A stretch of 64,000 nucleotides of DNA from Leucoraja erinacea (Eukaryota): contig NC_073395.1 in assembly GCF_028641065.1 (NCBI RefSeq), positions 32,054,001 through 32,118,000 of the forward strand, read 5' to 3'. Positions 26,304 to 61,901 of the stretch are shown in pieces. Below the pieces are notes generated by a model. That model searched no databases. It was not told where the DNA came from and saw only the letters and a list, made by a program, of their open reading frames with translations. The stretch's first letter is position 1, and each line of letters opens with the position of its first letter. The position numbers and the translations under genes were made by a program.

Positions 26304-26495
26304 GTAAGAGATTTTGGTTATTCTTTGACAATTTGGTTTGGAAAGAATTTGTATTCTTAGATGTCTTCCATAAACTCCAGACATCACATAATATGAGTAG
26401 GGTTAGAACACTTTTAGTTTAAAGATACTGCATGGTGACAGGCCCTTCAGCACACGGAGTCCATGCCAACATTCGATCACCTGTTCACATGTACC

Positions 26496-28930: not shown

Positions 28931-29409
28931 CTCCCTTGTATGTCTTGCTATTTACTTTCGCAAATAATTATTTAGCCTGGAAGTATTTCTTTATCAACTG
29001 GTGGCGCATTGATGTAGTGGAAGGCGCTACTGAATCTCGGCTACAGCCACCTGATTCTGACCTCCATTGCTGTCCATGCTGTATTTTCTCATTCTCTGTA
29101 ACCACACGTTTTCTCCAGACTCCCTGGCTACCTTACACAGCCCACAGACATGCTAGTTGATGGATTTGTCTACTGTAAATTATCCTCGACGTGTGGATGG
29201 ATAGTGGAATCTAGGAGAGGGAGCGTTTATTGGGAAGCGGTGAGATTGGTTGATAGTAAATTAATGGGGGAATCGAATTGCTCTGTGAGCCTTCATTCAC
29301 TCAATGGGCCAAATAGCCTGTTCTCTAAGGAAATATACAAATTGCAGATTGTCTCCATGACAGTTGTAGAGGTGGTTTACTTTAGTACAAATGTTATGTG
29401 CTTTTTTAG

Positions 29410-29488
29410 GAAAAAGAAACTGTCATCGTATCAAAAAACTAAAGAAGAATATGAGAAAAGACAAGCAGAATATATACAGAAAAAAGAA
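29410..29488 (+). CDS. CCDC59: CCDC59 exon 3
   Basis: ttttag acceptor; KKKLSSYQKTKEEYEKRQAEYIQKKE; GTAAGT donor, phase 0. Confidence 0.92.
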
Positions 29489-31233
29489 GTAAGTATCATG
29501 TTGGGGGTTTTGGGCTCAGCAGTGTTTTTAGATTGTTTCGAATTAGGTTAAGCAAATTAACTTGCAGAAATGAGTTTACAATGAGCTTAGGCCCAACAGT
29601 AAGGTTTACAGCTGACCATGAAGTCGATACTAACTCAACTTTTTTTATATCTGCAGTTGTTCACTTGTTGCTAAAAATCGCCACCAATTCAAAGTAATAA
29701 GGCCTGAGCAAACCCGGGCCTTGCAATTTATTGTTGTCATATTGATTGACTGAAACAAATTCTGTGGATAAAATAGCTGTAAACTCTTCAGTAACCAGCA
29801 AATCCAGTCGTGTGCTTTACCCGACACCATGAAATACTTAAGATACGGATGCTGCTTTACTGTAAAAAGACACACAAATGCTGGAGAATCTCAGCAGCAG
29901 GCAGGCAGCATCTCTGGAGAGCATGGATACGAGATGTTTTGGGCCGGGAGCCTGCAGGTTTGCGTGAGTGAGGCCCGGAGCTGCAGGAGCGAGAGCGAGG
30001 GGCTGCAGGTACCAGCACGTAGCGGAGAATGAGAAGTGGTGGATTGAATGTAGGTTGAGCCCAAACTGGCAGGCCTGGAAATGAAGACTGAAGCCATGTG
30101 ACACAAGATGGCCATGCAGGCAAGTGCTGTGAAAGCACACTGTGGTAGCGAGTCCGGGTCAAAACATGGTCGAAGAGCAGGAGAGCATCAGGGAAAATAT
30201 TCCCAATGTTGAGGGAGTTCCAGAACCAGGAGCCACAGTCTAAGAATAAAGGGTAGGCCATTTAAAACTGAGATGAGAAAAAACTTTTTCACCCAGAGAG
30301 TTGTGAATTTGTGGAATTCTCTGTCACAGAAGGCAGTAGAGGCCAATTCACTGGATGAATTTAAAAGAGAGTTAGATAGAGCTCTTAGGGCTAGCGGAAT
30401 CCAGGGTTATGGGGAAAAGGCAGGCACGGGTTACTGATTGTGGATGATCAGCAATGATCACAATGAATGGCAGTGCAGGGTTGAAGGGCCAAATGGCCTC
30501 CTCCTGCACCTATTTTCTATGTTTCTGTGACACAAGGGGAGCAGTGAGAGAGATGGACGTTGAAAGAAGCCTTGTGGGACTAATTCACACTCCAATCTAA
30601 AGATATTGCCTGGTGACTTCCTCACTTTTGTTTTCAGAATTGCCATCCCTCCAGCACCCCCACCCTACCCTATATCTCTGCTCTTTGGCAAAAGACATTG
30701 AAGAATTTGACAACATGTGCAATATTGTCAACGGTTGTCTGTCGTACTGGCAGATCATCTATGTCAACTGATCAAATTGGACAATCATCAAGCTACTCTA
30801 ATACAGCCAGTAAAAAAATACGGAAAACATTGTTACAACAGGTGGCCATGACCGATATTTTAAGGCGGAGATTGACAGATTCTTGATTAGTAAGGGCGTG
30901 GGGGGGGTTTAGGGCGAAGGTAGAAGAATGGGGTTGAGTGGGAAAGATAGATCATCCGTGATTGAATGGCTGAGTAGACTTGATGGCCTAATCCTTCTCT
31001 TAGAAGTTATGAACTTGCATTACCACCCAGAACTACCAAGCAACAAGATTTTGCTTTTGATTTCCTTTCTCTGAGGTCTTCTCATGTTCAATACGGTGTG
31101 CCAACAATCTATGTTCGCGTTGTTCCTAAGGGTAAGAGTGCAAATGATTATTGTCATTTATTTTAATATTGTTGAATGAATGATTATGCTTATTTTAAGT
31201 ATGGTTATTAATTTCTTGCTAATTTTCCTTAAG

Positions 31234-31395
31234 GCGGCAGAAAAAAGACAAAAGGATAAAGAAGAGGCACAGAGGAAATACAAAGAACAAAAACTGGAGA
31301 GATATAAAATGCTCTGCAAGAAAACAAGAACAGGCCAGCCAAACCTGAACCTGCAGATGGAATACTTGCTTAAAAAAATCCAAGATAAGACATGA
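31234..31395 (+). CDS. CCDC59: CCDC59 exon 4 (terminal)
   Basis: [53 protein letters not shown], with the [18 protein letters not shown] signature. Spliced CDS is 702 nt = 233 aa. Confidence 0.95.
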
Positions 31396-34300
31396 AATAA
31401 AATCGTCTATTTCTGACTAACATTGCCACCATTTATTCTCCTTTGGATCTCATTGGCTGTTTAAAAGATTTTGATGCAATTGTCATTCAATCCCAAACAT
31501 GAGCATTTGGTGATATTTCATTCAGATTGATATTTGATACTAGTGACAAAAAAATGTATTTGTAGGCATGCAAATCTGGAATGGTGAACACACAAACTCT
31601 GCTGGTAAATTACAGTGATCTTTTATTGATCATCTTGAATGATAAGCGGGTGGCGTCAGCAGTCTGTCACGTCCCATCTCTGTTTTTATTATTTTAAGTA
31701 TGTTTTAAATGTGTGTTTCAATGTTTCTATTGGGGGGGAGGGGGGGCAGTCGTAGGAGCAACGCGGACTCTAACATCATGAAGCTGCGATCTTGCGATTG
31801 CCAGAAGAAGTGCTCCGACCGCGGGGCCTGTGGACTTTTAACACCATGAAGCTGCGGTCTCTGTTAAGAAGCGGCCGACTCGGGAACTCCATGCCGCGGA
31901 GTGTTCCAATCCGTCCCGACGTTGGAGTTTCGATCATCCCGACAAGAGGGCCTGAACATCAGACCGTCTAACGGCGAACTGCGGAGGGTTCAAAGGCCTC
32001 TGGGTGTTTATGTTAAATTTTATTTTATGTGTGTATTGTGTTCTTTTCACTTGATATGGCTGTATGGTAACTCAAATTTTGCTGTGCCTTAATTGGTTAA
32101 GTGACAATAAATGCAAAACTAAACTTTGAAAAATGCAAAATTAATCTAGTCGCCATGAAGTTTGAAAAATGCAAAATATTGAGATTTTGTTTGTAACTTT
32201 AAACTGTTCACTTGTATCACTCTGGTTAAATTTTATGTTTCTAGACCTATGATGGCTTGCCAATATCTTTTCATATTGTGTACATTATGGATTTTGTCAG
32301 CAAAAAAGTGACCTGGTGACATTTCTTATTTAACGGATTATAAATGTATTGGAGAAAATATCCACGAGCATACCGACACCAATTGTATGTAAAAATTAGA
32401 TGTCATAGTAGTTCATCTACAACATGCATCCTAAATAGTGAAAGTAAAAAGTCGTAGGTGAAGTTAATTCATACGATAACAAACATTAGATCAGTGGAAA
32501 AGGCCGAGACATTTGCAGGCAGTCTTCAGCCAATTTGATTTATTTCCCCATAATCTCAAGAAACAATTGAATACAGTGGATTTTTGTTCAGTCTGCCTGG
32601 ATACAGTCCCAACAACCAACTCTTTGTCATCGGCAAATTAACCAAATAGCAAGTAAAACTTAACAATGATCTCTTCACTAATGCCTAATTTGAGTTCTAC
32701 CAAGAGTACAATTTCAAAATAGCATCATGGTCCAAATGTAGATAAGACTCCATTATGGGTCCAGGTTTTATACATTCCTATCATACTTTTTTCAACAACA
32801 GCTATGGCTAAAGTCTTATTTATCTACCTATGCCCATTGAAATTAAATGATTTTATATTGAGAATTAAATGTTATTCTAATCTAAAAGTTGAAATAATTA
32901 TTTCTTAGGCCTGGGTTCATTGTCACGTGTACTGATGTGCAATGAAAAGCATCGTTTTGCATGCTATCCATTCAAGTGAGTTAATGCTATACATAAATGC
33001 AATGAAGCCAAACTCTACAATAGATAGAGAGTAAGGTAAAGATAAAGAATGCAGAATGTAGTTATAATAATTTACCAAATCTATTGGTATGCCCTTTTGA
33101 CAGTTTGGACAATAAATATCGTGATTCCTGGCATTTTGGAAGGAAAAATGTCAGCTTATAAATTGAAATGGATGCCTTTATCAAAGTGCCTTTCATGTCC
33201 TGAACATGTTCCAAAAGACTTCAAAAAATGTTAAGTGGGGAAACATGCTCAAAAGCTAATTTATGCAAAGCAAGACCACAAAATTGCAACAAAATTAATA
33301 ACCAGATAATCTGATGTGAAACACAAAGTGCTGTGAACTCAGTAGATTAGGCAGTTCAGTGTGTATTTGTACATGTGACAATTAAGCACCATTGATTATC
33401 TGTGAAGGGCATGGACAGTCAATGCCTCGAATTGGGACTCTTCCTTAGACTGGTCAAGCACCACCTTGGATCAGGACCTCACCTCCAACCCAGATTCCAG
33501 CAGTGGCAGGTTTTTGTGTCTCCAATCTATGGAGGGATATGGGTTAAGTGATGACTGATGGCGAGGAGAACTATTGTTCCTGAAAATGTATCATGATGTC
33601 TTTTACATCCGCCATAGATTTCCATGCCTTGTGCACCACAGCAGAAAGGCAGCAAACCTGAGAGAAATTCACATTTAGTACTCAAATAAAATGTCAGCCT
33701 AGGTTATGAATTCAAGTCTTTGGAGCCAAACTTCAATTCATGCACACCTGAATTTGGAAGCAAGCATTCCGTTTTCACCTCAGCTGATCAAAGCATCTAC
33801 AGACTGTTCCACAGAAACTGGATTTCATCTGTGTTGCACTTAAACAATCATGCTTGTAGTGCTAGTACCAAATTGAAAAGAAAAGTAAATTGGTTTCAAA
33901 AATGGATATGTTAAATTATGATGTGCACATGTCCAAATAACAGTGCTCCATTTTATTGTGCAGTAGTCAGTGAAGATTATACCTTAAAAGGCACATAGTA
34001 AAGTAAAATATCCTTTATTGTCATTCAGACCTTCCGGTCTGAACGAAATTTCGTGCCATGCAGTCATACATATAATAAAATAACAAAAACACACAATAAA
34101 CACAAATTTAACATCCACCACAGTGAGTTCACCAGGCACCTCCTCACTGTGATGGAAGGCAAAAGTCTTAAAGTCTATGTCTCTTCCCTCCTTGTTCTCC
34201 CTTGACATTTCCCTTGACACACAGCAGCAGCACGCATTATGCCTGCCATAATGTGAAAAGGACTGGTGACGGCATGGCGAGGACAAGGAGGATCTCCAAA

Positions 34301-34787
34301 TGAGACATTGATCAGCTGTTGAACCAAATTGGTGCCAAGCGATGAAACATGCAAAATATAACATCATAGATGTATCAAGATGACTTCTACTGTCTTTCAT
34401 ACTAACATATCCTCTGGCATATATTCGCACACGCAAAACTTTTCTTTATTCTAGTCCCATATTTCCTTATGTACCCACACTCCCCTCCTACACCAGTCCC
34501 CCCGATAGATAGTTGCTCTCCATGATTTTCCAATCGAAAAATAAAAAAGTTTAAAAAATCTTGAGTTTGGCTGATTGGTTCTCTCGCCTGTCAATCACGA
34601 TGAGGGGGCAGGACTATAAAACCCCGGATGCCCAGACGTGAGTCAGTCACTCTGGAAGATCGTGAGGGAGAGTCCACAACTGTGATTCTAAGCTGTGAAT
34701 CAACTGAACTGTGGGTCTGCAATGTATTTGCAATAAATGATTTGTTAGCCCTTAATGACAATGCAATGAGTTGTTTGGCAATTTGGT

Positions 34788-34990
34788 GGCCTGCACTCTT
34801 GCTTGAAATGCTGTGAAATTGAATGTGGTGGCCTGCACTCTGCTTGAAATGCTGTGAAATTGAATGTGGTGTCCTGCACTCTGCTTGAAATGGAATTTCA
34901 AGGAATAGCCGTGAGTGAACTGCCAGCCCACCAGTCCTGAGTGACTGAGCTGCCAGCCCACCAGGCCTGAGTGACTGAGTTGCCAGCCTA
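34788..34990. repeat. Two adjacent minisatellites (~41-bp and ~30-bp units, ~2.6 copies each) in a Helitron-related fragment
   Basis: Repeated units GCCTGCACTCTGCTTGAAATGCTGTGAAATTGAATGTGGTG and GAGTGACTGAGCTGCCAGCCCACCAGGCCT. The upstream GGACTATAAAACC is shared with the 52670 region. Confidence 0.75.
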
Positions 34991-35579
34991 AGAATCCATT
35001 TGGCCCACAATGTCCATACTAGCCCTCTGGAAACCAGTCCATTCGGCCCACAACACCCATACTAGCGCTCCAGACCTTTTAAATGGCATGCTTATATTGA
35101 ACTCAATGTGTTAATTTTATTGGGTCATTGTGTCAATGCAAGCCAAAAAAGATAGGCTTTCTTTATAGTTAGACGTAATGAAACAGAAAACACTGGATAA
35201 ACTCAACAGGTCTGGGTACATCGTGGGAAGTGAAACAAAGCTGATTGTTTCTCTTCCCACAGATGTGACCTGATCTGCCAAGTATCACACTTTTCTGTTT
35301 TATTTTAGACATCCAGCATCTGGAATTTCTGCAGTGACTAGAATAACAGTTGGTTTTTTTAGACCCGTCTGAAGAAGGGTCTCGATCTGAAACATTACCA
35401 ATTCCTTTTCCCCAGAGATGTTGCCTGACCCACCGAATGTTAGCATTTTGTGTCTAGTCGATTTTTTTAGATCTAGGATCTCCAATTAATATCAAGAAAG
35501 CTTCAAAGAAGAGTTGCACAGCAATTAGCATTGTTATTCCAAAGTTTCATGCTGATGAAATATTAAACATGGTAGCGTG

Positions 35580-36380
35580 GATGGTGGTTGGGGACACAAC
35601 AGATGAGGACGAGTCGGAGTATAGAAGTGAGATCGACCGACTGACCAAATGGTGCCAGCACAACAACCTGGCTCTCAACATCAGTAACACCAAGGAACTG
35701 ATTATGGACTTCAGTCGGGGAAGGATGAGGACACACAATCCTGTTCACATCAATGGGACGACGGTGGAGAGGGTCAATAACTTCAAATTCCTGGGCGTGC
35801 ATATATCCGAAGATCTTTCCTGGATCCAGCACACCAATGCAATTATAAAGAAGGCACATCAGCAACTCTACTTCCTGAGAAGATTACGGAGATTCGGCAT
35901 GTCAAAGAGGATTCTCCTAAACTTCTACAGGTACACGGTAGAGAGCATTCTGACTGGTTGCAGCATCGCCTGGTTCGGCAACTTGAACGTCCAGGAGCGA
36001 AAAAGACTACAAAAAGTTGTGACCACTGCCCAGTCCATCACCGGCTTTGACCTCCCCACCGTCGAAGGGATCTATCATAGTTGCTGCCTCAAAAAGGCAG
36101 CCAAAATCATCAAAGACCCACTCCATCCTGGCCACACACTTATTTCACCCTTGCCATCAGGAAGAAAGTACAGGAGCCTGAAAACTGTAACGTCCAGGTT
36201 CAGGAACAGTTTCTTCCCTACAGCCATCAGGCTATTAAACACAACAACGAATAAGCTCTAAGCTTTGAACTGCAAAAGACTATTATTATTGCACTATATT
36301 TGTTATTTATTGAACTTTTTCTTTTTTTTCTCTTCCCCCGTTATGTACTATGTCTACATATTCACATATTCTGTTATGCT
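35580..36380 (+). mobile_element. Rex1/Babar LINE 3' fragment (ORF 35569-36261)
   Basis: WCQHNNLALNISNTKEL, FKFLGVHISEDLSW and LPSGRKYRSLKTVTSRFRNSFFP motifs. Confidence 0.9.
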
Positions 36381-36477
36381 GCATCAAACATTCTTGACTC
36401 TCTCTCTCTCTTGGTTGGAAGTGCTTTGTCCAATTTTACAATTGCCATCCTTTCCCCACTAGTGGTCATTAATTCGG

Positions 36478-36897
36478 CTTGTACTCGCTAGAATTTAGAA
36501 GATTGAGGGGGAATCTTATAGAAACTTACAAAATTCTTAATGGGTTGGACTGGCTAGATGCAGGAAGATTGTTCCCGGTGTTGGGGAAGTCCAGAACAAG
36601 GGGTCACAGTTTAAGGATAACGGGGAAATCTTTTAGGACTGAGATGAGAAAAACATTTTTCACACAGAGAGTGGTGAATCTCTGGAATTCTCTGCCACAT
36701 AAGGTAGTTGAGGCCAGTTCATTGGCTATATTTAAGAGGGAGTTAGATGTGGCCCGTGTGGCTAAGGGGATCAGAGGGTATGGAGAGAAGGCAGGTACAG
36801 GATACTGAGTTGGATGATCAGCCATGATCATGTTGAATGGCGGTGCAGGCTCGAAGGGCCGAATGGCCTACTCCTGCACCTATTTTCTATGTTTCTA
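36478..36897 (+). mobile_element. CR1 3' end
   Basis: YSLEFRRLRGNLIETYKIL...GYGEKAGTGY plus 3' UTR; close to the 4900-5320 copy. Confidence 0.92.
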
Positions 36898-39039
36898 AGT
36901 GATTTACTTGAGGATACATCAGTTTGGAATTGCATCTTTCTGAAAAAAGTCAGTGTTTTTTTCTGAGCAATTATGATATTTTTCGATGTTTAACTAAGGA
37001 AAGAACAAAGACTTAATTTATTACTGGCAATTAAATTTGGGTACTCAATTCCCACTTGGGAAGTCGATCTGGGTCAGCCTTTCAGCGCATTGCTGAAGGA
37101 GAATACTGTAGTGTCATCTCTCATGTAAGATGCGTTCAGGTGGGTCATGATCCCATGACATCATTCAAAGATGAAAAAGGATGTCTAATATTTATTTCCA
37201 TAAAAGTGTAATGGCCACTTGTCTGTACTACTTTATCAATCGTGGTTTGTACAGCTGCCTGATATGACTGACAGTAAAACAGTTTGAAGCAAATATTATT
37301 CAGCTGTTTCCAAGCATCTTCATATGTCATGAAGAAATGTGAAGCACTTTTGTAAATACCACTCCTTTGGTTGGATGTGAAATGAACTTTAATTCATGGT
37401 TAAGTAAACCGGAAATTCCATAGCATGTCTCCTATTCATAGAATATTAATTTCACGTCATTTAGTCCTATCAGATAGTAGATTGTATATATGATATGCCC
37501 ACTGAAGTAACATAGATGTACAATTTAGAAATCAATGGGAAAATTGCTCTGCCCCGAGAGAACAGCAAGCTGTATGTGGAGTCGCAGCTGTTCCTATTAG
37601 TAAAGTTGAATAAACATTGAATAACAATGACACTGTATAACACTTAAAACAGATGCTTTAAAAATCTGCAAATTGTAGGCAATAAATAATTTGTTGTAAT
37701 GTGATGATTGTAAGATAAGTCTTTGATCGGTCAAAATGTTATCCCATCACATTCCATGTTGTCTTTATTCTTCATAAATTGTCTTTACCATAAGAGTTAT
37801 AGAACTATTGTTCACAAAAGGAGGTCATTGTGTCCATGCAGTCCAAAAAAGCAAGGCTTTCTCTGTAATTGCACGTAATAAAAACAGAAAACGCTGGACA
37901 AACTCAACAGATCTGGTCCCATCTTGGGAAGTGAAACAAAGCAGTTTGTTCTCTTCTCACAGATGTGGCCTGACCTGCGGAGTGTCACATTTTCTGTATT
38001 ATTTTAGATATCCAGCATCTGCAATTTCTGTTTTTATTTTCACATACTAATTGCATATCCTAGCACTAGTTTTGTTGGTTATAACACCTCAAATGTTCTC
38101 CCAAATATATTCCTTAAATGTAATTATGTTATCCGTCTCTTTCAGGCAGTGAGTTCCAGAACTCTACCACCGGGTTTAAACTGCTAATACATTCTAATCC
38201 TTTGTGGAAATAAGTGAGAAAACTTTAATGAACCCGAAGGATATAAGACCTATGTGGAATCACACTTGTTCATATCAGTAAAATTGAATAAACATCGAGT
38301 AAAAATTACCTCTCTGATTCGCTCTAATCTCTCTATTAATTTCCTTAAATATGTTCCCTCTTTTAATGATATCTACTAAAGAAAATAGTTCCTTCCGGTT
38401 ACTGATCGCTACCAAGAAAAATGAATCATTTTATTTGTCCATTCTGGTCCTCATCTTTTTAACCACTTCAATTCAAATACCCCTCAGCTTCTTATGCTCC
38501 AATGAAAATAAAAATCCTGTCCAGCCAGTTTTTCTCCTACAACTAAATTTCAACTGTATTTTTTTTTGCAATCCTCCTCTGCCACCCCCATTCTGCTCTC
38601 GATGCGATGACCAGAATCTAATAGATTTGATTTGTAACATTTTGTACAAAACCTCCCTGACCAATTATCTTATCCACCTTATCTACACTTAACTTATTTC
38701 AGCAGATACATGATAATGATAAAAGGAATAATATTTAGTGCAAGCTAAAGTCTGATTAGAGTCTGAGGGTCTCCAATGAGGTATAGTAGCTCAGGACCAA
38801 AGTTCCTCTAGTATCTTTGCTCAGGACCACTCTCTGGTTGTTGATAGGATAGTAAAGTTGCCTGATAACAGCAGGGAAGAAACTTATCAGGCAAACTCTT
38901 TCCAGTATTCTGCAATGTAGTGTGCATTTCATTGACTTTTTGTTTTCCCCAAATGAAGTTAGAATGCTGCATGTGTTTAATTATTTGAAACATATTTAAG
39001 TATTTTGATTTTTAAAAATATTTAGTCGAGAAGATGCCA

Positions 39040-39350
39040 ACAAGATATGGACGCTCAGCAGCTCAAAACGTTGCAAGGAACAAACGATGAGAGAAGAAAG
39101 AAGGTGGGAGAGAATACCAGAGCGGACACTTGTCATGGAAACTGCAAACAAGCCTAGAGCCACATCACTGACGCTAAACCACAGAGACGTGGGCTAACGG
39201 GAGGGGCAGAACTCTACATTCACTGTTGCCTGGAGACCAACAATGTTTTTTTTCGGAAAGCTCCGACGAATTCCCGATCTTCGCAGAGCTCTTGAGAACG
39301 TACGAGTGCTACAGGAACGGTAACAGTTATCTTAGATAGTTATTGAGGTG
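39040..39350 (+). promoter_or_regulatory. Candidate promoter and non-coding first exon with two RFX X-boxes
   Basis: Local CpG enrichment. CTTGTCATGGAAAC (39129-39142) and GTTGCCTGGAGAC (39225-39237), with a GC-box-like GGGAGGGGC between them. Donor-like sites at 39320 (CG/GTAAC) and 39348 (GAG/GTGAA). Confidence 0.55.
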
Positions 39351-41699
39351 AATATTGTGTTTAATGCGAATTACTTTCATGAGAGCTTTCTCTGCGTGAG
39401 AGTTAGAATGGAAAACAGTTGGGAGGGGACATTCTCAACTTCATAAAGAGGTCGATGGCGCAGTCTTCTACCACCTCCCCATGGATCAGCAATGAATTAC
39501 ACCAGCTCTCAAATTATACATATAATTTGCATATCAAGTCAGGCCGAGTTTACTGTTGTATGCACATGTGTACAGTAAGTACAGGTACAATAAAATCCCG
39601 CTTGTAGCAACATCGCAGTCACATAGACTCCGACAATATACAAAACATAAATTATACATAAATTACACAGCACAGAGAAAAGGAAAAAGACCATGCCAAA
39701 AAAAAATACATTGCTGACAATTGCTATTCCCACCAAGTGTCATTCAGTCCATTTACACAGTGGGATTACAATCTTTTATCTTCCTATCTGATCCAACATA
39801 TGGTTATTAGGCTAGCCCAATGTCACCCAGGTATGTGTAAGAAGGAACTGCAGATGCTGGTTTAAACTGAAAATAGACACAAAAAGCTGGAGTAAGACAG
39901 CAGGACAGATAGCATCTCTGGAGAGAAGGAATGGGTGATGTTTCGGGGTCAAGACCCTTCTTCAGACCCAGGTATTCCCAGTTTCTCCATCTATCCCTCT
40001 TTCACCACCTCTGCAACTTAAATCTATTTTCTCTCTTTCTCAATCCTGTCACTGGCCTGAAACATGGTTTGCTTTACAGTTTTCACAGATGCCCCCGGAC
40101 CAGCTGAGTGTGCAGCAGCATTTTCTGTTTTTATTTTAAACGTAACATCTGTTTTTTCTCACATGTTCAAGTGAAGAGTAATTCATCAAGCTCCTGACTT
40201 CTGCTTTGTATATGGTGGTTAGGCTTCAGGATGTTAGAACATGAGACAATTGCATGCCATATGCCATATATATTGAAAGATATAGAAGATTGGTTAGTTG
40301 ACAGGAAATACAGCAACAAATACAGGGAAAAAAGGGATCAAGTTTGGGTGGCGCAGCAAAGATAGTGATTGGACACTAACTGCTTGCAATGTATATTAAT
40401 AAGTTTGACTCGGGGTCTGAATGCAATGAATTATTGCCAATGAAGTAAACCAAGGGGAAGAAATGAGCTATGAGACTAAGACAAAGAGGCTGAAAAAGGG
40501 CAAAGTGAAGCTGAATGATGGAATGGAATGTTGAGCAATATGACGTTTTTTGGTTGGAAAGCAGATAAGTGCAAAGCTGGGGAATGTTAGTAATATTGAG
40601 TGCTTCACTTGGACCGTAGAAAGTTAACATGCTGATTCAACAAACAATTTGAAACGCAGAGGAACAAGGAAATCTTAGTGAAATTGGCTAGTAGATCCAA
40701 GATTTCATTTTTTTCGGAAAAATCAAACAAATACACTGCTGAGCATGTGAAAGTTAGCTTAACCTGGAGTGAAATTGGATCGTGGGGCCAAACATCGTTT
40801 TCATAAAAATCCAAAAAATACATTGTGGAGCATCTGAAAGTCAGTTTAACCTCAAGTAGAGCATTAATGTGAAAATAAAAACAAACCATAGATGTCATAA
40901 ATCTGAAAATACTGAAGCACTCAGCAGATCAAGCAGCATTTGCGGAAACAGAAACAGAGTAAATGATTTAATGACAAATGTCTCACAAATACTTCCCCAG
41001 GTTTTGGACTTCAACTATTTTCTAATTCGGATAGGAATTAAACATTGTTGTTTTAAATATATCTGTTTTTATAAGTGAAGCAGTGATTTACTTTCTTCAA
41101 TCTAGTATACTGCATTTGGTAGTACTGACGTTTTCGACATGGGAATGCTTTGTGAAGCATCTGTGATAAGTCCACAGGAATGATTCTGAGCTTACAGTTG
41201 CCTGCTATTTTTATTCCCCAAACCCCATCCACCTCACAATGTCTGCGGCCTCAACACTGTTACGAGGCCCGAAACATGCTTGAGAAACAATGTTTCATCT
41301 TCCACCTGGATATGTTGCAGCCTTCCAGACTCAATTTTCATCAGAACTAGAGAAGAAAGCAAACAAGTTAACCTACACTAACAGAGAAGTTGAAGGAAGG
41401 ATGGATACATGGAATACTGGTGACCCCATGGTAGTTTTCACTTATCTGTAACTATTGAACTGGAGTTGCAAATAGATCACCGCTTCAGTGTGCGAGGACA
41501 ACACTTAGTTGAGAAAAATAATATTTGAAGATCAAAACTTGACAAAAAAAACTCCTGATCTAATGGGCAGTATGATCGTTGTCATCTCATGAGCTTCGTA
41601 GACCTGTATTATTTATAGAAGGCGCTTTAAGGTACTGGAGATATATCATTAACACTATCTCTGAAAAAATGTACTGATTTCACTGGAAAGATAAGTGAA

Positions 41700-42170
41700 G
41701 TCAGTGCTCCTTCACAGGCCAGCATTCCAGCACTAGGGCCCCGGTTGCATTCAGTTTGCTATAGTGGGCGGAACATATTGTTCGCATGACTGACACAAGA
41801 CTCGTGAAACTGACACATTTTCCCGAGCAATTTATTGCAAGGAGACGACGGTTAGACAGAGCAAATGATTCAAAGATCTGCTCAAAGTTTCCTTGAAGAA
41901 GTACATCTCCAGCTACTTCTGGAAACCCTGAAATATGACTGAAAGTAGAGAAGGAGCATGTGGGATGGTTTTGCAAACCTTGACGCATGGTGAACACACA
42001 TAAGGTGCCAGAGGAATATACCTTCTCACAAACTACTCACCTGCCTGCCTGCCCCCATAGCAACCCCAGCCCCTTTAGGAGAATCACAGTTCATGCATTG
42101 CCCTCAGAAACCACCAAACCAGGGTGGATGCAATTTATCTTCGATCATGACGGAATACCTAGGAAGAATT
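41700..42170 (+). mobile_element. Old RTE-clade LINE fragment
   Basis: Remnant L*WAEHIVRMTDTRL resembles the RTE LRWAGHxxRMxDxR motif. Confidence 0.55.
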
Positions 42171-43269
42171 TGGTTCTCTACTTGGCCAATATTTTGCCTT
42201 AAATTCTATGAGTTTCAATTCTAGCTAACAATCTGTAATGTAGAAGTTTATTATGGAAATCTTTTTGCCAGTTTTTATGAAGACATACTGTAAACAAAAT
42301 TCCCTTCTTCATCTTTTTAATGGCTTACTTACATTTGTTTACTTGTGCTTTATCCTTCGTATATTCTTGCAATCTTTCCAGCAATTTACTTTACTCACTC
42401 TGTTCACATTCATTTCCTTTACTCAGATCTCTTCCAGGCATTGGCTGCAATTAAGAAGATTGCACCATTAGTGTCATTTAATCCATTGTGGTATCCACCC
42501 TTTCACAGATGTTGCCTTATTTAGCTCCACTACCACCCACCTTCTTCACAACTTAAAACATGTTTGATTTCTAACTTTTCCAAATTCTGATCAACTTTTC
42601 ATCAGCCTGAAATGTTCTTCAATCCAGAAGCATTGATGAGTATCTCTCCTGATTTCTGTTTTTACTTCTGATTTGCAGTTTCCAAAGTTCTTCTTAATCG
42701 GTTCAAAATTTTCTCAATCATAAAATTCAACAGCTTACTTATGAAGGAAGTTAGACAACAAGCTTACAGTTCCCTGGTTTTCTTCCGTCAATTTTCTTCA
42801 GTAATGGAGTTACATTTGCAGTTTTACAATCTAAAGGAACAGATCTTGTAAAAATTGTGGTGGTAGAATCTGTAATTTCTTTATCGACTTCCGTTTAAAA
42901 TTGTTGGTTGAAAATCTTCAGGCCCTAAGGACTCATAAGTCTTTGGTGCCATTCTTATTTTTATGCTGTTTTCATGGTTTCAATCATAGATTTATCTTTA
43001 ATTTCCCTAGAATGTCCGATGTATTGTCTTCTTCACATACGATGAAGACTGGCATTAAATAATTATTCAATAGTTTGCCTTGTTTTTAATTATAATACCA
43101 GCTGCTATACCATGCCTTTCTCAGGTATTATACTGGCAATCATGATGTTGCATGTATTTCCATGCAATCAGGTATTACAATGGTCCTAGTACATGAAATA
43201 AAAATGAACTTAAATATATAAGCATTCCAAGAATAATATAATTAGAGGGGTCATAGGGTCAATAGGTCA

Positions 43270-43790
43270 TAAGGAATAGTAGAATTAGGCCATTCGGCTC
43301 ATCAAGTCTTCTCTGCCAATCAATCATGGCTGATCTATCTCTCCCTCCTAACCCCATTCTGCCTTCTCCCCGTAATCTCTGACACCTGTACTAATCAAGA
43401 ATCTATCTATCTCTGCGTTAAGAGTATCCATTGACTTGGCCTCCACAGCCTTCTGTGGCAAAGAATTCCACAGATTCACCACCCTCTGACTAAAAAAAAT
43501 GCTCATCTCCTTCCTAAAAGAACGTCCTTTAATTCTGAGGTTATGACCTCTAGTCCTAGACTCTTCCACTAGTGGAAAAATCCTCCCCACATCCACTCTA
43601 TCCAAGCCTTTCACTATTCTGTATGTTTCAATGAGATACTCCCTCATTCTTCTAAACCCCTCCGAGTATTGCTCATCATAGGATAACGTACTCATTTCTG
43701 GGATCATTCTTGTAAACCTCCTCTCGACCCTCTCCAGAGCCAGAGCATCCTTCCTCAGATATTGTACCCAAAATTGCTCACAATTATGCT
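43270..43790 (-). mobile_element. CR1 3' fragment
   Basis: LIETYRIVKGLDRVDVGRIFPLVEESRTRGHNLRIKG. Confidence 0.85.
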
Positions 43791-44871
43791 AAAAGTATGT
43801 TAACTAAAGATACCATTAAATCACACACACTGTAAGTAAATCTGTGTGCAAAAAATATATAGTTCTTATTCAGTAGATTATGTACCAATGTGCAATCCAA
43901 CGATGTAGAGGTTTGTAGGTTCATTGGCTTCAGTAAGTTGTAAAAATTGTCCCCAGGATAGTATGCTGGGTGATCGCTGGTCGGCGCAGACTCGGTCTGT
44001 TTCTGTGCTGTATCTCTAAAGTCGTATCACACTACAATACTTTTTTTGCATCTAATGTAATTGTAAAAGGCTTGAAGCTCAGCAGCATACAATAGAAGGG
44101 AAAACAGGACAGACGGAAGGATTTGGGCTCTTTCCCTTTCCCATTCAGTAGGTACTACTTGGGTATCTTGAGTAAGGAAACTTAGAACAGAAGTTTAACA
44201 TTGTTTAGTGCTTCCTACAGGCTTCGGGTACATTTTTAAATTTGATTTGCAAATTTTAATCTTTAATCAATATTTGACATAAGGATGTTAACATACAATA
44301 ATGATTTTAAATGCGCCATTTGTCTATTAAGGAATAAAGTTTAAGATAGATGTTGACTTTTAGTCTATGTCAGAGTCCTTCACAATAGACTGGATGTATA
44401 AACAATGTATGAATTGGGGAATATCCATTTGCACCTTCATAGGTTCATGTTGTAGGGGGAGAATTAGGCCATTCGGCCCATCAAGTCTATGCCGCCATCA
44501 ATCAAAGTTGATCTATCTTTCCCTCTCAGTCCCATTCTACTGCCTTCTAACCATAACCTCTCACACCCGTAAGAGACATCCTTGCTTTACTATAAATCAT
44601 TTGCACAGATTATAGTTTGCACAAAGTGAGGTTTAAATGACACAACCAGCATCTGCAGTTCATTCTTAGACTTTATATGACACAATAATTGGATATGGTT
44701 TTCTCTAACTAAACATTGAGGTTAAGGTGGTCAACCTTTGTATTCTTCTTCTTATCGAGTCCACACACAAGATTAGAAGTTGTTCAGCCAGAGCTGAATA
44801 CACTTCTCGGCATCTGCACACAATGGTGTCTTTCTTGTGCTTCTTGTGCTTCTTGTGCGTGGTGGTGCAAA

Positions 44872-45895
44872 GATGACTAGTGGGGTGCCTCAGGGATCTG
44901 TGTTGGGTCCTTTGTTGTTTGTCATGTACATCAATGATCTGGATGAAGGTGTGGTAAATTGGATTAGTAAGTATGCAGATGATACCAAGATAGGGGGTGT
45001 TGTGGATAATGAAGAGGATTTCCAAAGTCTACAGAGTGATTTAGGCCATTTGGAAAAATGGCTGAAAGATGGCAGATGGAGTTTAATGCTGATAAATGTG
45101 AGGTGCTACACCTTGGCAGGACAAATCAAAATAGGACGTACATGGTAAATGGTAGGGAATTGAAGAATACAGTTGAACAGAGGGACCTGGGTATAACCGT
45201 GCATAGTTCCTTGAAGGTGGAATCTCATATAGATAGGGTGGTAAAGAAAGCTTTTGGTATGCTAGCCTTTATAAATCAGAGCATTGAGTATAGAAGCTGG
45301 AATGTAATGTTAAAATTGTACAAGGCATTGGTGAGACCAAATCTGGAGTATGGTGTACAATTTTGGTCGCCAAAGAGGAAGGATGTCAACAAAATAGAGA
45401 GAGTACAGAGGAGATTTACTAGAATGTTGCCTGGGTTTCAACAACTAAGTTACAGAGATAGGTTGAATAAGTTAGGTCTTTATTCTCTGGAGCGCAGAAG
45501 GTTAAGGGGGACCTGATAGAGGTCTTTAAAATGATGAGAGGGATAGACAGAGTTGATGTGGACAAGCTTTTCCCTTTGAGAATAGCGAAGATTCAAACAA
45601 GAGGACATGACTTCAGAATTAAGGGACAGAAGTTTAGGGGTAATATGAGGGGAACTTCTTTACGCAGAGAGTGGCGGCGGTGTGGAATGAGCTCCCAGTG
45701 GAAGTGGTGGAGGCAGGTTCATTGGTATCATTTAAAAATAAATTGGATAGGCATATGGATGAGAAGGGAATGGAGGGTTATGATACGAGTGCAGGCAGGT
45801 GGGACTAAGGGGGAAAAAATTTGTTCGGCATGGACTTGTAGGGCCGAGATGGCCTGTTTCCGTGCTGTAATTGTTATATGGTTATATGGTTATAT
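44872..45895 (+). mobile_element. 5'-truncated, frameshifted CR1 LINE
   Basis: TSGVPQGSVLGP, KYADDTK and LVRPNLEYGVQFWSP in three successive frames; (GGTTATAT)n tail. Confidence 0.92.
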
Positions 45896-46447
45896 GATTG
45901 GTGAAAACAGGGCCGCGACGTGAACGCTCTTTCCTTGATCCCAACCGTTGTATTGTAATCCATGAATGAGCGGGTCGAGTCCAGTTTACTTGGTTTATAA
46001 AAGCTTAGACATTCAGGATAGCTTGTATTTGATTTTAAACACAAGAGTCTTGCAAATGATAAATGATTGTTGTTATTAAGAGGAATGACTGGTCCATTGC
46101 TATCCTCACCTTGGTGCTAGTTTAAATGCAAGTATTTAGTATTGTAATTGGATTGAGTTATCAATCCCGAGTGATTAAAACAATTAGTTAAGGTGGAAGG
46201 TTAATACTGTACCATTAACTCTATTTCTTATTACAATTGCTGCTTGAGGTGCTGAGCATTCCCAACATTTTCTGATTTAATTTTGTGTTTGCAGCGTTAA
46301 CATTATCTTTGTTTTGTATGGGAAACAGTTTGGTTACTTACGAAGTGAGATGATCACTTTTTTATCATATTTCTTTACGAGGATTTTTTTTGTTGTTGCT
46401 TTACTTGCAGATGTCGCTCGCAAATAATTTGATTTAAATTTGATTAA

Positions 46448-46577
46448 ATGCCTCTGCGCACAAGAATAACATGTTACACAGCCTGGGCAAATGCACGATG
46501 TTCTTCACTGAGTCGTCAGCTCAACAATATATTTATAGAGCTGTTCACAGACAATCATTTGAAAAAATTGTTAGAAA
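46448..46577 (+). CDS. Uncharacterised tandem CH-domain protein, coding exon 1
   Basis: Exon opens at 46411 after ttacttgcag. MPLRTRITCYTAWANARCSSLSRQLNNIFIELFTDNHLKKLLE resembles the start of a CH domain (FTxWxNxxL...). A/GTAAG donor, phase 1. Confidence 0.82.
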
Positions 46578-47407
46578 GTAAGTTCAAATTCTAAAAAAAA
46601 TGATATTTGATTGTAGTACATATATGCATCATTAACTTTTCTATAATTGAATGGACTTAACCCTTTCATTACTCAGATATTTGTGTGGAATATGTTAAGC
46701 CTATTATAACATTAAACTCCGCAGAAAGGGGACTACCAACCAAGTCTATTTTTGTTGTTTTACCTCCCGTTACTGATGGTCCTGATACCATTTATTTAAT
46801 TATTTATTTTTAAAATTACTATTGCACCTCATGCTTGTAATAGGTCCAGAAACATAGACCACGTCTTTTGGAATTGGTCTGCTTTACCTGCTAAGAGGAA
46901 TCTCATCTCTTCCAGATGTAATGTTTCAAACATATTTGATATCCACATTTTTATTGTTGGTGTGGGCGCATTTTTCCAGAATTTGTGTATAAGCCGTCCA
47001 TTTTAATAACGTAATAGCAGCCTTTTTTGAACAATCAATTGTAATGGCAGGTTTCCATGTTACTAGAGTGACATTTAAACAGGCAGAATATCTTATTAAC
47101 TGGCAGATAGCTAACTATTAACTATATAGTGTTTTACAATATTGCTGTACGCACTTTATGTAGAAAAATATTATACATGTGGTGTATTAAATGTTTCTGT
47201 AAACCTTTCTGTATACTTGCATAATAGCTAATAAATTGGGAATGTAAATTGCACTATTTATTTGTTGTATATTGCAGACTTTACAATTAAGCAAGTTGAA
47301 CTGAGATCTATTTATTTTATTCACAATGAAAGTCCACTTTTAATGGGGTTTTTTTGCTCTGTTGTTTGAAAGTTACTAAGTTTTTTCCCGATGTGTTTTT
47401 TGGTTAG

Positions 47408-47577
47408 GTTTTACTGGAAAGGCACCCAGAAATATGAACAGCATGGCTCAACGTCTATCTAAACAGAATCTTATTCCACGATTTGAGTTGTTTTTAGAAG
47501 AACTACAAAAAGCTGGCATCATACCTAAGGATAGTAAAATCGACTGTGGCCTGATTGCCAAGAAAAATATTAAATCT
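47408..47577 (+). CDS. Tandem CH-domain protein, coding exon 2
   Basis: ttag acceptor, phase 1; SFTGKAPRNMNSMAQRLSKQNLIPRFELFLEELQKAGIIPKDSKIDCGLIAKKNIKS; GTACGT donor, phase 0. Confidence 0.82.
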
Positions 47578-47809
47578 GTACGTAAAAGGGTCTCTTTTAT
47601 TGTTAACTTCCACTTGAATAACACCAGATGGGTTATCTTAATAGCTTATTTTTGACTAATTTAACGAGCAGACACGTTTACGTTTCAATGCCGTGCATTT
47701 TTAAAAAAATCGTGATTAAGCGGTAACAGTCAGGTGAGAAGATTCATGTGCATCACATGTCCCCAGTGAGGAGCTGAATTCACAGGGACTATGGATCAAG
47801 GAAGTAGGA

Positions 47810-48550
47810 CAACATCAGGAGCACCTCTTCAACTGCATTCAGTGCTCCCGATGTGGCCTCTGTTATATTGGTGAGACAGAGCGTAGACGACGAACATTTC
47901 ATCAAACATTTGCACTCGGTCTGCCAAGGCCTACGGAACTCCCGGTTGCTAACCATTTTAACTCCCCTTCCCATTCCCATACCAACCTTTCTGTCCTGGG
48001 CATCCTCCATTGCCACAGTGAGGTCATGCACAAACTGGTGGAGCAGCACCTCACATTCTGTTTTGGTAGCTCACAACCCAGTGGAAAGTTGAATTCTCCA
48101 GTTTTATGTGAACAACTCTCTCCTCCTCCCCTTCCTTTCTCCCCTTTTCCCCTTTTATCTCCCTCTCTTCCCTGTGCCCTACCTGGATGCACCCACCCAT
48201 TTCTCCCTTTCCCCTTCACCCCCTTCCCTTCCACCTGTATTCCTTCCTCTTGATTTACATTTCACACCCCTTCTGTTCTCCTTAACTCAGACATTATGTT
48301 TTCTCATCTTTGTCCTTTGTCCAAATGTCTGCCAATCACCCCCCCCCCCCCCACACACCCCTCACCCCACCTTTATCCACCTATTGCTTGGCTTTTGCCC
48401 CCTCCACCTCTCTTCCACCTTTCTCCCACCTTTCTCCCCTGACTACAATCACTGAAGAAGGTTCACAACCCAAAGCATCGCCTCTCCATGTTTTCCAGAG
48501 ATCCTGCCTGACATGCAGAGTTACTCCAGCACTTTCTGTCTTTTGTATCT
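47810..48550 (+). mobile_element. Penelope-like element remnant
   Basis: NCIQCSRCGLCYIGET (YIG half of GIY-YIG), HKLVEQHLTFCFGSSQPSG, a pyrimidine-rich tract and a terminal repeat with CTGAAGAAGG. Confidence 0.8.
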
Positions 48551-50196: not shown

Positions 50197-50640
50197 CAAG
50201 TCAAGTCAAGTCACATTTATTTATATAGCACATTTAAAAAAACAACTCTCGTTGGCCAAAGTGCTTTACATTTGTTATAAGAATAGTATAAACAAACAAA
50301 CTACATAAATATATACACATAGCCCTCGCTCAGTGGACGTCAGGAAAGGCATGGGAGTATAGATAAGATTTTATTCTTGACTTAAAGGAGTTGATGGAGG
50401 GGGCAGTTCTGATGGGAAAGGAGATGCTGTTCCACAGTCTAGGTGCTGCAACCGCAAAGGCGCGGTCGCCCCTAAGCTTATGCCTAGACCGTGGGATATT
50501 CAGCAGCCCCAAGTCGGCCGATCTGTGGGACCTGGAGGTGGAGTGGTGGGTGAGAAGACTTTTAATGTAGGAGGGGGCAAGCCCATTGAGGACTTTGTAG
50601 ACATAGAGGAAGGTCTTAAAATGTATACGGAACCGCACAG
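50197..50640 (-). mobile_element. L2-clade LINE 3' end
   Basis: RIHFKTFLYVYKVLNGLAPSY...GDRAFAVAAPRLWNS...SFKSR; AATAAA followed by a (TTGAC)n tail. Confidence 0.85.
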
Positions 50641-54224: not shown

Positions 54225-54335
54225 ATAAGTGACCTACTATGGAAGTTAATAGTGTATGACATTCGGTTCACCTGGGAACGGTCAAGTCAACTGCTGCTCA
54301 ATAATGAGAAACTGGTCTGCGCCATTTGTTTCAAG
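54225..54335 (+). CDS. Tandem CH-domain protein, coding exon 3
   Basis: ccag acceptor; ISDLLWKLIVYDIRFTWERSSQLLLNNEKLVCAICFK, where LLWKLI resembles the final CH helix (ILGLIWxLI); AAG/GTAGG donor. Confidence 0.85.
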
Positions 54336-54813: not shown

Positions 54814-54967
54814 TGGACACTACAGGTTAAATCATCAGTGCAAAAGCAAGCAAAAGCTCCTCCATCATTTTTTGCTGGTCTTGCGTTCCCATTAGATGAA
54901 ACAAATGGATCTTCTGTCTCTACCCAGATTGAATCGTATTATTTGCAAAATTCGGAACCATTTCCAG
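54814..54967 (+). CDS. Tandem CH-domain protein, coding exon 4 (linker)
   Basis: ttcag acceptor, phase 0; WTLQVKSSVQKQAKAPPSFFAGLAFPLDETNGSSVSTQIESYYLQNSEPFP; CAG/GTAAT donor, phase 1. Confidence 0.8.
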
Positions 54968-57733: not shown

Positions 57734-57840
57734 GTCATGAGCTAGCTAAAGCCTTTAACAAGAAAATTCCTAAAGAGGGCTGGAATAACTATCCTTCTGC
57801 CGTTGAATGCATTCTGGATCTCGTTAATACCCATTTGCAG
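57734..57840 (+). CDS. Tandem CH-domain protein, coding exon 5
   Basis: taag acceptor, phase 1; GHELAKAFNKKIPKEGWNNYPSAVECILDLVNTHLQ; CAG/GTACT donor, phase 0. Confidence 0.8.
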
Positions 57841-58483: not shown

Positions 58484-58611
58484 ATAGCAGCCAAAGGCCG
58501 TAAACTGTATGTAAAAGATATAGGTGACTTGGCAGATAGTCATGTCTGGTGCTATTTGGTGAACTCCTTCATGCCTGGCACGTTCATCGTGGAGGTACTT
58601 CCGTACGATAG
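58484..58611 (+). CDS. Tandem CH-domain protein, coding exon 6
   Basis: tgtag acceptor; IAAKGRKLYVKDIGDLADSHVWCYLVNSFMPGTFIVEVLPYD resembles the CH core (VxxFxxxxxDGxxxCxLxxxxxP); AG/GTATG donor, phase 2. Confidence 0.82.
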
Positions 58612-58700: not shown

Positions 58701-58782
58701 GTGGACAACGAATCTAGCTTTAAAAACAATGGAAGCAATTGTTTGCATATCAACTTCATTAACTTCACAAGATCTTCTTGAG
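58701..58782 (+). CDS. Tandem CH-domain protein, coding exon 7
   Basis: ttttgtag acceptor after an 89-nt intron, phase 2; RWTTNLALKTMEAIVCISTSLTSQDLLE; GAG/GTAAT donor. Confidence 0.82.
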
Positions 58783-58875: not shown

Positions 58876-58965
58876 GCAGATCCGAAGGCTCTCTGTGCCT
58901 ATTTGTGTGTTATCTTTATGTGTGGTTACAAGTTCAGGCAATCCATAGCAGTTGTAAACTACATT
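58876..58965 (+). CDS. Tandem CH-domain protein, coding exon 8
   Basis: Polypyrimidine tract + aag acceptor; ADPKALCAYLCVIFMCGYKFRQSIAVVNYI resembles a CH2 end (PDxKxxxxYL); GTGAGT donor, phase 0. Confidence 0.85.
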
Positions 58966-61774: not shown

Positions 61775-61901
61775 AAAGAGTTGCAACTTTTAAAGAGCAA
61801 GTTAGATGCGCAACTGCAAACCTTCCCCCTGGAAGAACTGGAGCCACATCAATCTGCCCAAAAGAGTGACTTGGAAAAGAAGCTAGAAGTGTTCAAGAAT
61901 G
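61775..61901 (+). CDS. Tandem CH-domain protein, coding exon 9 (coiled coil; gene continues beyond the window)
   Basis: tttttgttag acceptor, phase 0; KELQLLKSKLDAQLQTFPLEELEPHQSAQKSDLEKKLEVFKN; G/GTAAT donor, phase 1. Confidence 0.8.

What the first reader, a model, noticed from the sequence alone, without database searches (positions are those of the whole stretch)
39040..39350. Double RFX X-box promoter about 7 kb upstream suggests the CH gene is ciliary or flagellar
Seen in sequence: a CpG-enriched patch in AT-rich DNA holds two X-box matches ~95 bp apart, CTTGTCATGGAAAC and GTCTCC-A-GGCAAC (minus strand). Donor-like sites follow, and the first coding exon of the CH gene starts with an acceptor, so an upstream non-coding exon must exist. 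Established: RFX X-boxes mark ciliary gene promoters, and CH domains bind microtubules in ciliary proteins such as SPEF1, IFT81 and IFT54. Inference: this is an RFX-driven, testis- or motile-cilia-expressed gene.
Basis: partly seen in the sequence, partly recalled or inferred. Interest (0 to 1): 0.7.

Follow-up and report, generated by a model that had tools for sequence, protein, structure and literature searches.

The report
RFX promoter drives ancient actin-ankyrin gene
In a skate-like fish, this short stretch is likely the on-switch of an unnamed gene shared from single-celled relatives of animals to frogs; it carries the same RFX signature as cilia genes in this genome, but the protein is predicted to be an actin-type scaffold rather than the microtubule binder first proposed.

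Summary
The motifs are real but unequal. Box 2 (39225-39237) is one mismatch from the published X-box consensus; box 1 (39129-39142) is three off. They sit in the only single-copy CpG patch found in the 15 kb between the upstream CCDC59-like gene and the CH gene's first coding exon. In this genome 5 of 5 located ciliary-gene 5' patches carry an X-box, against 4 of 57 other single-copy CpG patches. One run guessed to be RNA has a piece that most likely ends beside the 39319 donor; the splice joint was not seen. The gene is single-copy and encodes about 1030 aa: tandem CH domains, a helical hairpin, a small beta domain and ankyrin repeats. Relatives occur in a choanoflagellate, Pigoraptor, sponge, jellyfish, rotifer, flatworm, echinoderms, lamprey, sharks, sturgeon, gar, coelacanth and amphibians; none was named from teleosts, amniotes, arthropods or nematodes. 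Its CH pair matches filamin/alpha-actinin actin-binding domains (Z 17-18), not SPEF1 (Z 8.8). Verdict: promoter likely (about 0.85), RFX/ciliated-cell expression plausible but untested (about 0.6), microtubule argument not supported.

The parts
39001..39350 (+). Single-copy CpG-enriched patch; likely promoter and first exon of the CH-ankyrin gene
   Evidence: 15 CpG, o/e 0.86 in 39040-39350; one copy in G000; only non-repeat CpG cluster found in 31400-46400
39129..39142 (.). X-box 1, weak: one good half-site
   Evidence: 3 mismatches to GTNRCC-N-RGYAAC, 2 to the recalled palindrome GTTNCCATGGNAAC
39144..39150 (+). Forkhead-like GCAAACA beside box 1; at chance level
   Evidence: 0.79 such sites per 400 bases across the window; motif recalled
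39225..39237 (-). X-box 2, good: GTCTCC-A-GGCAAC
   Evidence: 1 mismatch to the published consensus; same GTCTCC half as the boxes at CFAP300, DPCD and CLUAP1
39246..39319 (+). Inferred non-coding first exon (5' end uncertain)
   Evidence: Run X2 (RNA guessed) has a piece of depth 3.53 over 39310, 9 letters from a piece end; bin depth fits 73 bases ending at 39318; joint not seen
39320..39325 (+). Donor 1 (favoured)
   Evidence: ACG|GTAACA, 6 of 9 consensus positions; next to the inferred end of the X2 piece
39348..39353 (+). Donor 2 (alternative)
   Evidence: GAG|GTGAAT, 7 of 9; no RNA support seen
38707..38884 (.). High-copy repeat carrying an X-box-like 13-mer at 38857-38869; a decoy, not counted as support
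   Evidence: 2557 candidates in G000; same 13-mer at 7957 and in L012
46411..46577 (+). First coding exon: 37-base leader starting with an 8-codon upstream ORF, main ATG 46448, CH1 helix A onward
   Evidence: P0002 residues 1-44 match at 100%; start aligned across orthologues
47408..47577 (+). Coding exon 2 (CH1)
   Evidence: 96% identical to P0002; an X2 piece begins at its first base
54225..54335 (+). Coding exon 3 (CH1 last helix)
54814..54967 (+). Coding exon 4 (insert between the CH domains)
57734..57840 (+). Coding exon 5 (insert, start of CH2)
58484..58611 (+). Coding exon 6 (CH2)
58701..58782 (+). Coding exon 7 (CH2)
   Evidence: open frame continuous with its neighbours
58876..58965 (+). 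Coding exon 8 (CH2 last helix)
61775..61901 (+). Coding exon 9 (helical hairpin); the gene continues about 77 kb past the window end
   Evidence: matches run to G000:C19:32195486

Best explanation
39040-39350 is a single-copy CpG patch with one good and one weak X-box that is likely the promoter and non-coding first exon of an unnamed, roughly 1030-residue tandem-CH plus ankyrin-repeat gene, which RFX factors likely switch on in ciliated cells, where the protein is predicted to work as an actin-linked scaffold rather than as a SPEF1-like microtubule binder. Shown: the motifs, the patch, the intact single-copy gene, the family and its domain order. Inferred: RFX binds box 2 (box 1 at most auxiliary), transcription starts just downstream of it, a short exon splices from 39319 across 7.1 kb to 46411, and translation starts at 46448 after a short upstream ORF. 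Predicted: CH1-CH2 pack as a filamin/alpha-actinin-type actin-binding domain and the ankyrin repeats recruit partners, probably at the apical cortex or ciliary base. Step odds: promoter 0.85, RFX/ciliated-cell expression 0.6-0.65, actin-side rather than axonemal role 0.75.
For: Promoter: the other CpG clusters in the interval are repeats (31750-32000, 4007 candidates; 45896-45942, 1676 candidates), leaving this patch. Run X2 (RNA guessed) has a piece over 39310 that shares a substitution with the orthologous DNA contigs of X5 and X8 and ends 9 letters away; it also has a piece starting at the first base of coding exon 2, and depth matching 129 of the 128 exonic bases in the exon-1 bin. RFX: of 6 ciliary control genes, 5 had a locatable 5' CpG patch; 4 of 5 hold a site with at most 1 mismatch to the published consensus and 5 of 5 by that or the palindromic rule, against 2 and 4 of 57 other single-copy patches in 1.11 Mb. 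Functional X-boxes lie within 500 bases of the start site (PMC5838959, passages); 21 of 28 high-confidence mouse RFX targets are cilia-related (PMC7498320, passages). Protein: model of the N-terminal half of a shark orthologue pLDDT 88, pTM 0.85; filamin B Z 18.0 (rmsd 2.9, 226 aligned), alpha-actinin 17.7, plectin 17.5; single domains alpha-actinin CH1 13.1 against SPEF1 8.8 and EB1 8.8; same matches for the skate model, Z 16.5-16.8; 41 of 42 PDB profile hits are spectrin-superfamily actin-binding domains. Family from choanoflagellate and Pigoraptor to amphibians.
Against: The 39319-46411 joint was not displayed; the output was swamped by repeats and cut. X2 is one low-depth run only guessed to be RNA, the piece end computes to 39318 rather than 39319, and the 9 letters could be counted leftwards (start 39302). 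Box 1 is weak and a box-2-grade site arises in 3.4% of shuffles. The control set is small (5), the background patches are not verified promoters, and DPCD's first exon was not itself identified. No orthologue could be tied to ciliated cells by any expression or proteome table; the one annotation found is 'Non-Specific'. Teleosts and amniotes have motile cilia yet no orthologue was named from them, and no full-length relative was named outside Holozoa, which is unlike a core ciliary gene. Actin binding is untested: the last CH1 helix has Asp/Glu (67% of 45 rows) where dystrophin has the Gly of 'LGLIW', and a shared fold shows no function.
Confidence: 0.42

Rival explanations
1. The patch is the promoter, but the X-box is incidental or serves non-ciliary RFX control; the protein is a broadly expressed actin-cortex or adhesion scaffold.
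For: 4 of 57 other single-copy CpG patches also hold an X-box. The CH pair belongs with filamin, alpha-actinin, dystrophin and plectin, and beta-parvin CH2 scores Z 13.0. The flatworm orthologue is 'Non-Specific'. Human RFX targets include non-ciliary tissue clusters (PMC5838959, passages).
Against: X-boxes are about ten times more frequent at ciliary 5' patches than at other single-copy patches here, and box 2 shares its GTCTCC half with three of the five controls. A flatworm covered in cilia would also give 'Non-Specific' (recalled biology).
Confidence: 0.28
2. One reading: an RFX-driven testis or motile-cilium gene whose CH domains bind axonemal or IFT microtubules as in SPEF1, IFT81 or IFT54.
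For: Same promoter evidence. Named relatives come from lineages recalled as ciliated. A large chain of the mouse sperm central apparatus matches both CH domains weakly (9ijj_4A, Z 9.4, rmsd 4.2, 233 aligned), so tandem CH domains do occur in axonemes.
Against: SPEF1 and EB1 rank far below actin-type CH1 domains even domain for domain (8.8 against 12-13). The family profile finds only spectrin-superfamily domains. Retention in a bdelloid rotifer and in Macrostomum (no sperm, and aflagellate sperm; recalled) argues against a sperm-tail-only role.
Confidence: 0.15
3. The patch is not this gene's main promoter: an enhancer, the start of a separate non-coding RNA, or a minor alternative first exon.
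For: It lies 7.1 kb from the acceptor and no joint was seen. A similar X-box CpG patch sits inside a BBS5 intron (L003:7335), so such patches are not always gene starts. CpG-poor promoters would be missed by my scan.
Against: The acceptor at 46411 needs an upstream exon, no better candidate exists in 15 kb, and the X2 piece ends beside the donor in the same run that holds exon-bounded pieces of the gene.
Confidence: 0.15

Closest known systems
RFX X-box promoters of ciliary genes (here CFAP298, BBS5, CFAP300, DPCD, CLUAP1 of G000; consensus from PMC10530576)
   Same: CpG patch with an X-box close to the first exon; box 2 equals the CFAP300 and DPCD boxes in mismatch count and left half-site
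   Different: Fewer CpG (21 in 550 bases against 31-92 in the control patches); a second weak box; RFX binding and expression untested
Spectrin-superfamily actin-binding domains (filamin, alpha-actinin, dystrophin/utrophin, plectin/MACF1)
   Same: N-terminal CH1-CH2 pair in the same packing (Z 17-18, rmsd 2.8-2.9, about 220 residues); FTxWxN first helix conserved
   Different: About 80-residue insert between the CH domains; followed by a hairpin, a beta domain and ankyrin repeats instead of spectrin or Ig repeats; second actin-binding site altered; identity only 17-21%
SPEF1 / EB1 / Hook microtubule- or motor-associated single CH domains
   Same: CH fold (Z 8-10); SPEF1 is an RFX-dependent ciliary gene in a choanoflagellate (log2FC -1.64 in the cRFXa mutant, PMC10530576 supplement)
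   Different: Single CH against a tandem pair; much weaker structural match; no profile hit
RefSeq 'uncharacterized protein LOC116984113' (Amblyraja radiata, P0002) and its unnamed orthologues
   Same: Direct orthologue: 96% over coding exon 2; all parts match one locus in G000
   Different: Database model only; no function or name found in print

Membership tests
RFX X-box promoter | Match to GTNRCC-N(0-3)-RGYAAC | tested here: met
   Box 2 with 1 mismatch, the level of 2 of the 5 controls; box 1 fails with 3
RFX X-box promoter | Within about 500 bases of the transcription start | tested here: inconclusive
   Start not mapped; an X2 contig piece is inferred to begin about 9 bases downstream of box 2, but contigs cannot show a start
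RFX X-box promoter | X-box conserved in other species | tested here: inconclusive
   No listed substitution falls in either box in DNA runs X5 and X8, but these are only about 3-6% diverged and the table was cut (14 of X5's 22 differences shown)
RFX X-box promoter | RFX occupancy and RFX-dependent expression | not testable with these tools
   Needs ChIP, reporter mutation or knockdown
Ciliary gene | Expression in ciliated cells or testis; protein in cilium or basal body | tested here: inconclusive
   Only annotation found: flatworm orthologue 'Non-Specific'; other supplements held no entry
Ciliary gene | Homologues confined to ciliated taxa | tested here: inconclusive
   All named full-length relatives are from holozoans recalled as ciliated, but only 30 of 81 hits were looked up and 18 had a taxon; none named from ciliated teleosts, amniotes or non-holozoans
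Spectrin-superfamily actin-binding domain | Tandem type-1/type-2 CH pair in filamin/alpha-actinin packing | tested here: met
   Predicted models: Z 16.5-18.0 over 217-226 residues; Foldseek top rows all such domains
Spectrin-superfamily actin-binding domain | Conserved actin-binding sites ABS1 and ABS2 | tested here: inconclusive
   First helix FTxWxN conserved (T 89%, W 87%, N 90%); last CH1 helix keeps its core but has Asp/Glu for Gly
Spectrin-superfamily actin-binding domain | Binds F-actin | not testable with these tools
   Needs co-sedimentation or cell localisation
Spectrin-superfamily proteins (whole-protein membership) | Spectrin or filamin-Ig repeats after the actin-binding domain | tested here: not met
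   Ankyrin repeats follow instead; of 61 members scanned only 2 gave a weak spectrin-type hit
SPEF1-type microtubule-binding CH protein | Single N-terminal CH whose closest fold is SPEF1/EB1 | tested here: not met
   Two CH domains; SPEF1 Z 8.8 (rmsd 4.2, 113 aligned) against alpha-actinin CH1 13.1 (rmsd 2.5, 108 aligned)
IFT81 / IFT54 CH proteins | CH fold of the IFT81/IFT54 class | tested here: inconclusive
   Not ranked by the fold search, which does not exclude them

The most novel reading that the evidence does not exclude
This is an undescribed, pre-animal member of the RFX ciliogenesis module: an actin-binding-domain plus ankyrin scaffold that ties cilia to the cortical or microvillar actin around them, kept from choanoflagellates and sponges to sharks and frogs and lost separately in teleosts, amniotes and ecdysozoans, so that screens in mouse, zebrafish, fly and worm could never have found it.
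Probability: 0.25. Interest if true: 0.7.

Novelty: new variant of a known kind. Interest (0 to 1): 0.42.

Why it matters
The promoter itself is an ordinary RFX-type promoter. Its value is as a functional pointer for an unnamed gene family, as old as animals, with a domain order (actin-binding CH pair, beta domain, ankyrin repeats) that my searches did not find described. If the RFX link holds, it adds an actin-side component to the ciliogenesis programme that the standard model organisms appear to lack. Frogs, sea urchins and flatworms make it directly testable.

Tried and rejected
No RNA holder listed: the run search gave no run on record as RNA; this says nothing on expression. In one search, X2 showed no cover at 39155-39182 or 39338, nor in several single-copy intron bins; X1 showed none over the patch. 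These holes come from one study and prove nothing. The joint table was filled by repeat-derived joints (3022 rows not shown), so the junction could not be read. Alternative start near 45900: rejected as a repeat. CpG patch 31750-32000: a repeat. The 13-mer at 38857 as a third X-box: inside a repeat. Forkhead, MYB, CRE-half and GC-box motifs in the patch: near window background. FAM183 as a control: 5' end not located, left out of the 5 (a 0-mismatch box lies at L010:6312 outside any patch). X-box conservation in invertebrates: the metagenome scan gave one 1977-base contig (L028) with no upstream DNA. IFT81 and IFT54 were not among the 50 fold-search rows, and CH_2, IFT81_CH and MIP-T3 not among the 25 of 29 Pfam families shown; absence does not exclude them. 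Full-length searches returned mostly generic ankyrin proteins. Choanoflagellate RFX-mutant table: no row with both CH and ankyrin among 25 of 31 CH rows shown, file cut when stored. No entry for the orthologue identifiers in the supplements of PMC5816591, PMC5730564, PMC10396339, PMC7385117 (one file not searched) or PMC11827373, nor in full text; bioRxiv supplements and larger deposited tables could not be seen and may hold expression data. The beta domain (about residues 405-505) resembles ubiquitin-like folds only at lead level (scores under 0.9) and was not folded alone. The diplonemid hit P0075 matches only that domain and was not counted as an orthologue. No complex prediction was run.

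Full report
Observation. The 311 bases hold 15 CpG (o/e 0.86; window 0.47) and occur once in G000. Against the consensus GTNRCC-N(0-3)-RGYAAC, as printed in PMC10530576 (passages read), box 2 has one mismatch and box 1 three. Against the recalled palindrome GTTNCCATGGNAAC and its 13-base form they have one and two. In 3000 dinucleotide shuffles a box-2-grade site appeared 101 times; by the palindromic rule one site appeared 31 times and two sites never. The cut-offs were chosen after seeing the boxes. So this is one good X-box plus one weak one.

The gene. Nine plus-strand exons from 46411 to 61901 give 366 open codons with canonical splice sites. Coding exon 2 is 96% identical to P0002, a 1033-residue uncharacterised Amblyraja protein. 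P0002 matches one locus in G000, from C19:32100448 to 32195486, in 20 exon-sized pieces; the 4 other matches are generic ankyrin hits. The start at 46448 aligns with the start in sharks, sturgeon, frogs, coelacanth, lamprey and a sea urchin and has an in-frame stop directly before it, so any upstream exon is non-coding. Upstream lies a CCDC59-like gene (PF08524) ending near 31395. A liprin-alpha-like start lies downstream at L016:4740 (identity recalled; Pfam and PDB gave no hit).

Is the patch its promoter? Between 31400 and 46400 the other CpG clusters are high-copy repeats, which leaves 39000-39350. Run X2, guessed to be RNA, has a piece of depth 3.53 over 39310, 9 letters from a piece end. 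Counting as for other rows of that table gives an end at 39318, and the bin depth fits 73 bases, 39246-39318. The piece shares a substitution with the orthologous DNA contigs of X5 and X8. The same run has a piece beginning at the first base of coding exon 2, and depth equal to 129 bases in a bin with 128 exonic bases. This is one low-depth run, the end could be read leftwards, and the joint was not displayed. I put the promoter reading at about 0.85.

Is the X-box meaningful? I searched six ciliary families in G000 (accessions recalled, names confirmed by the tool) and fetched their upstream DNA. Five had a locatable 5' CpG patch; FAM183 did not and was dropped. CFAP298 and BBS5 have 0-mismatch boxes, CFAP300 and DPCD 1-mismatch boxes, and CLUAP1 a box that passes only the palindromic rule. 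Three of the five share box 2's GTCTCC half. In 1,113,426 bases scanned there were 268 CpG patches: 6 focal, 205 repeat-like, and 57 other single-copy ones, of which 2 pass the published rule and 4 pass either rule. Pairs of sites 21-150 bases apart occurred 6 times, this one included. That is roughly tenfold enrichment, on a small control set and against patches not verified as promoters. Published context: functional human X-boxes lie within 500 bases of the start (PMC5838959, passages); 21 of 28 high-confidence mouse RFX targets are cilia-related (PMC7498320, passages); 21.9% of choanoflagellate ciliary promoters carry the motif against 2.0% of all (PMC10530576, passages). Cross-species conservation could not be tested with power.

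The family. A search with the ankyrin-free N-terminal half gave 81 hits. I looked up 30 of them; 18 had a taxon. With, named members are skates, sharks, sturgeons, gar, coelacanth, caecilian, newts, frogs, lamprey, sea urchins, sea stars, sea cucumber, a bivalve, Macrostomum, a bdelloid rotifer, a jellyfish, a sponge, a choanoflagellate and Pigoraptor. A tree of 53 sequences of 200 residues or more (7 partial ones left out) recovers a single vertebrate clade with the main groups together and no unnamed branch where a teleost or amniote would fall. Among 36 shorter fragments, none looked like one by best hit. These losses are suggested, not proven. Macrostomum Mlig015264.g1 and g2 are 'Non-Specific' in positional RNA-seq (PMC7336406, supplement rows; identifier mapping assumed, and the class may be a default). 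Together with retention in a spermless rotifer (recalled), this points away from a testis-only role and fits either somatic cilia or broad expression.

The protein. Pfam finds ankyrin repeats and a weak CH; 35 of 61 members hit PF00307. The N-terminal half of a shark orthologue (P0125, 69% identical to P0002) folds with pLDDT 88 and pTM 0.85 into CH1, an insert, CH2, a helical hairpin and a beta domain. Its best matches are the actin-binding domains of filamin B (Z 18.0, rmsd 2.9, 226 aligned), alpha-actinin (17.7) and plectin (17.5). Single domains rank alpha-actinin CH1 13.1, beta-parvin CH2 13.0, NAV2 12.8 and utrophin 12.0 above Hook3 9.7, SPEF1 8.8 and EB1 8.8. Foldseek and a family profile agree, as does the skate full-length model. 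The first helix keeps FTxWxN, while the last CH1 helix has an acidic residue for the usual glycine, so actin binding is predicted, not shown.

Mechanism. Most likely RFX binds box 2, a short non-coding exon is spliced to 46411, and a scaffold is made whose CH pair engages actin at the apical cortex or ciliary base while the ankyrin repeats hold partners (0.42 for the whole chain). Rivals: a broadly expressed actin scaffold with an incidental or non-ciliary X-box (0.28), an axonemal microtubule binder (0.15), or a patch that is not the main promoter (0.15).

Novelty. The promoter is an ordinary member of a known kind. Papers seen: PMC5838959, PMC7498320 and PMC10530576 as passages (the last also supplement rows); PMC7336406 as supplement rows; PMC5816591, PMC5730564, PMC10396339 and PMC7385117 as supplement searches without a hit; PMC11827373 as abstract, outline and a supplement search without a hit. 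Interest 0.42.

Noticed in passing
window 46411-46437: The acceptor exon begins with an ATG opening an 8-codon upstream ORF that ends 10 bases before the main ATG, which has a T at -3; this could damp translation.
   Followed up: partly
window 38707-38884 (also 7957; L012:9505): A high-copy repeat carries an X-box-like 13-mer, so motif scans in this genome will pick up many repeat-borne false X-boxes.
   Followed up: partly
window 26098-31396 and L016:4740: The gene lies between a CCDC59-like gene and a liprin-alpha (PPFIA2)-like start, all on the plus strand; these two are neighbours in human (recalled), which suggests the gene was lost from between them.
   Followed up: partly
L003:7001-7450: A CpG patch with a 1-mismatch X-box and a donor-like site inside a BBS5 intron; possibly an alternative promoter.
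   Followed up: no
G000:C19:36375878-36376318: A second CFAP300-like match that covers profile positions 99-246 in one piece with a stop inside; looks like a processed copy.
   Followed up: no
P0125 residues 405-505 (exons beyond the window): The conserved beta domain between hairpin and ankyrin repeats has ubiquitin-like look-alikes only (scores under 0.9); a diplonemid protein carries two matches to it alone.
   Followed up: partly
window 10790-15165: A degenerate LTR-retrotransposon-like region with gag-, reverse-transcriptase- and integrase-like frames (read by eye).
   Followed up: no
L010:6312: A 0-mismatch X-box outside any CpG patch, about 3.5 kb upstream of the matched FAM183 exon; possibly a CpG-poor RFX promoter.
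   Followed up: no
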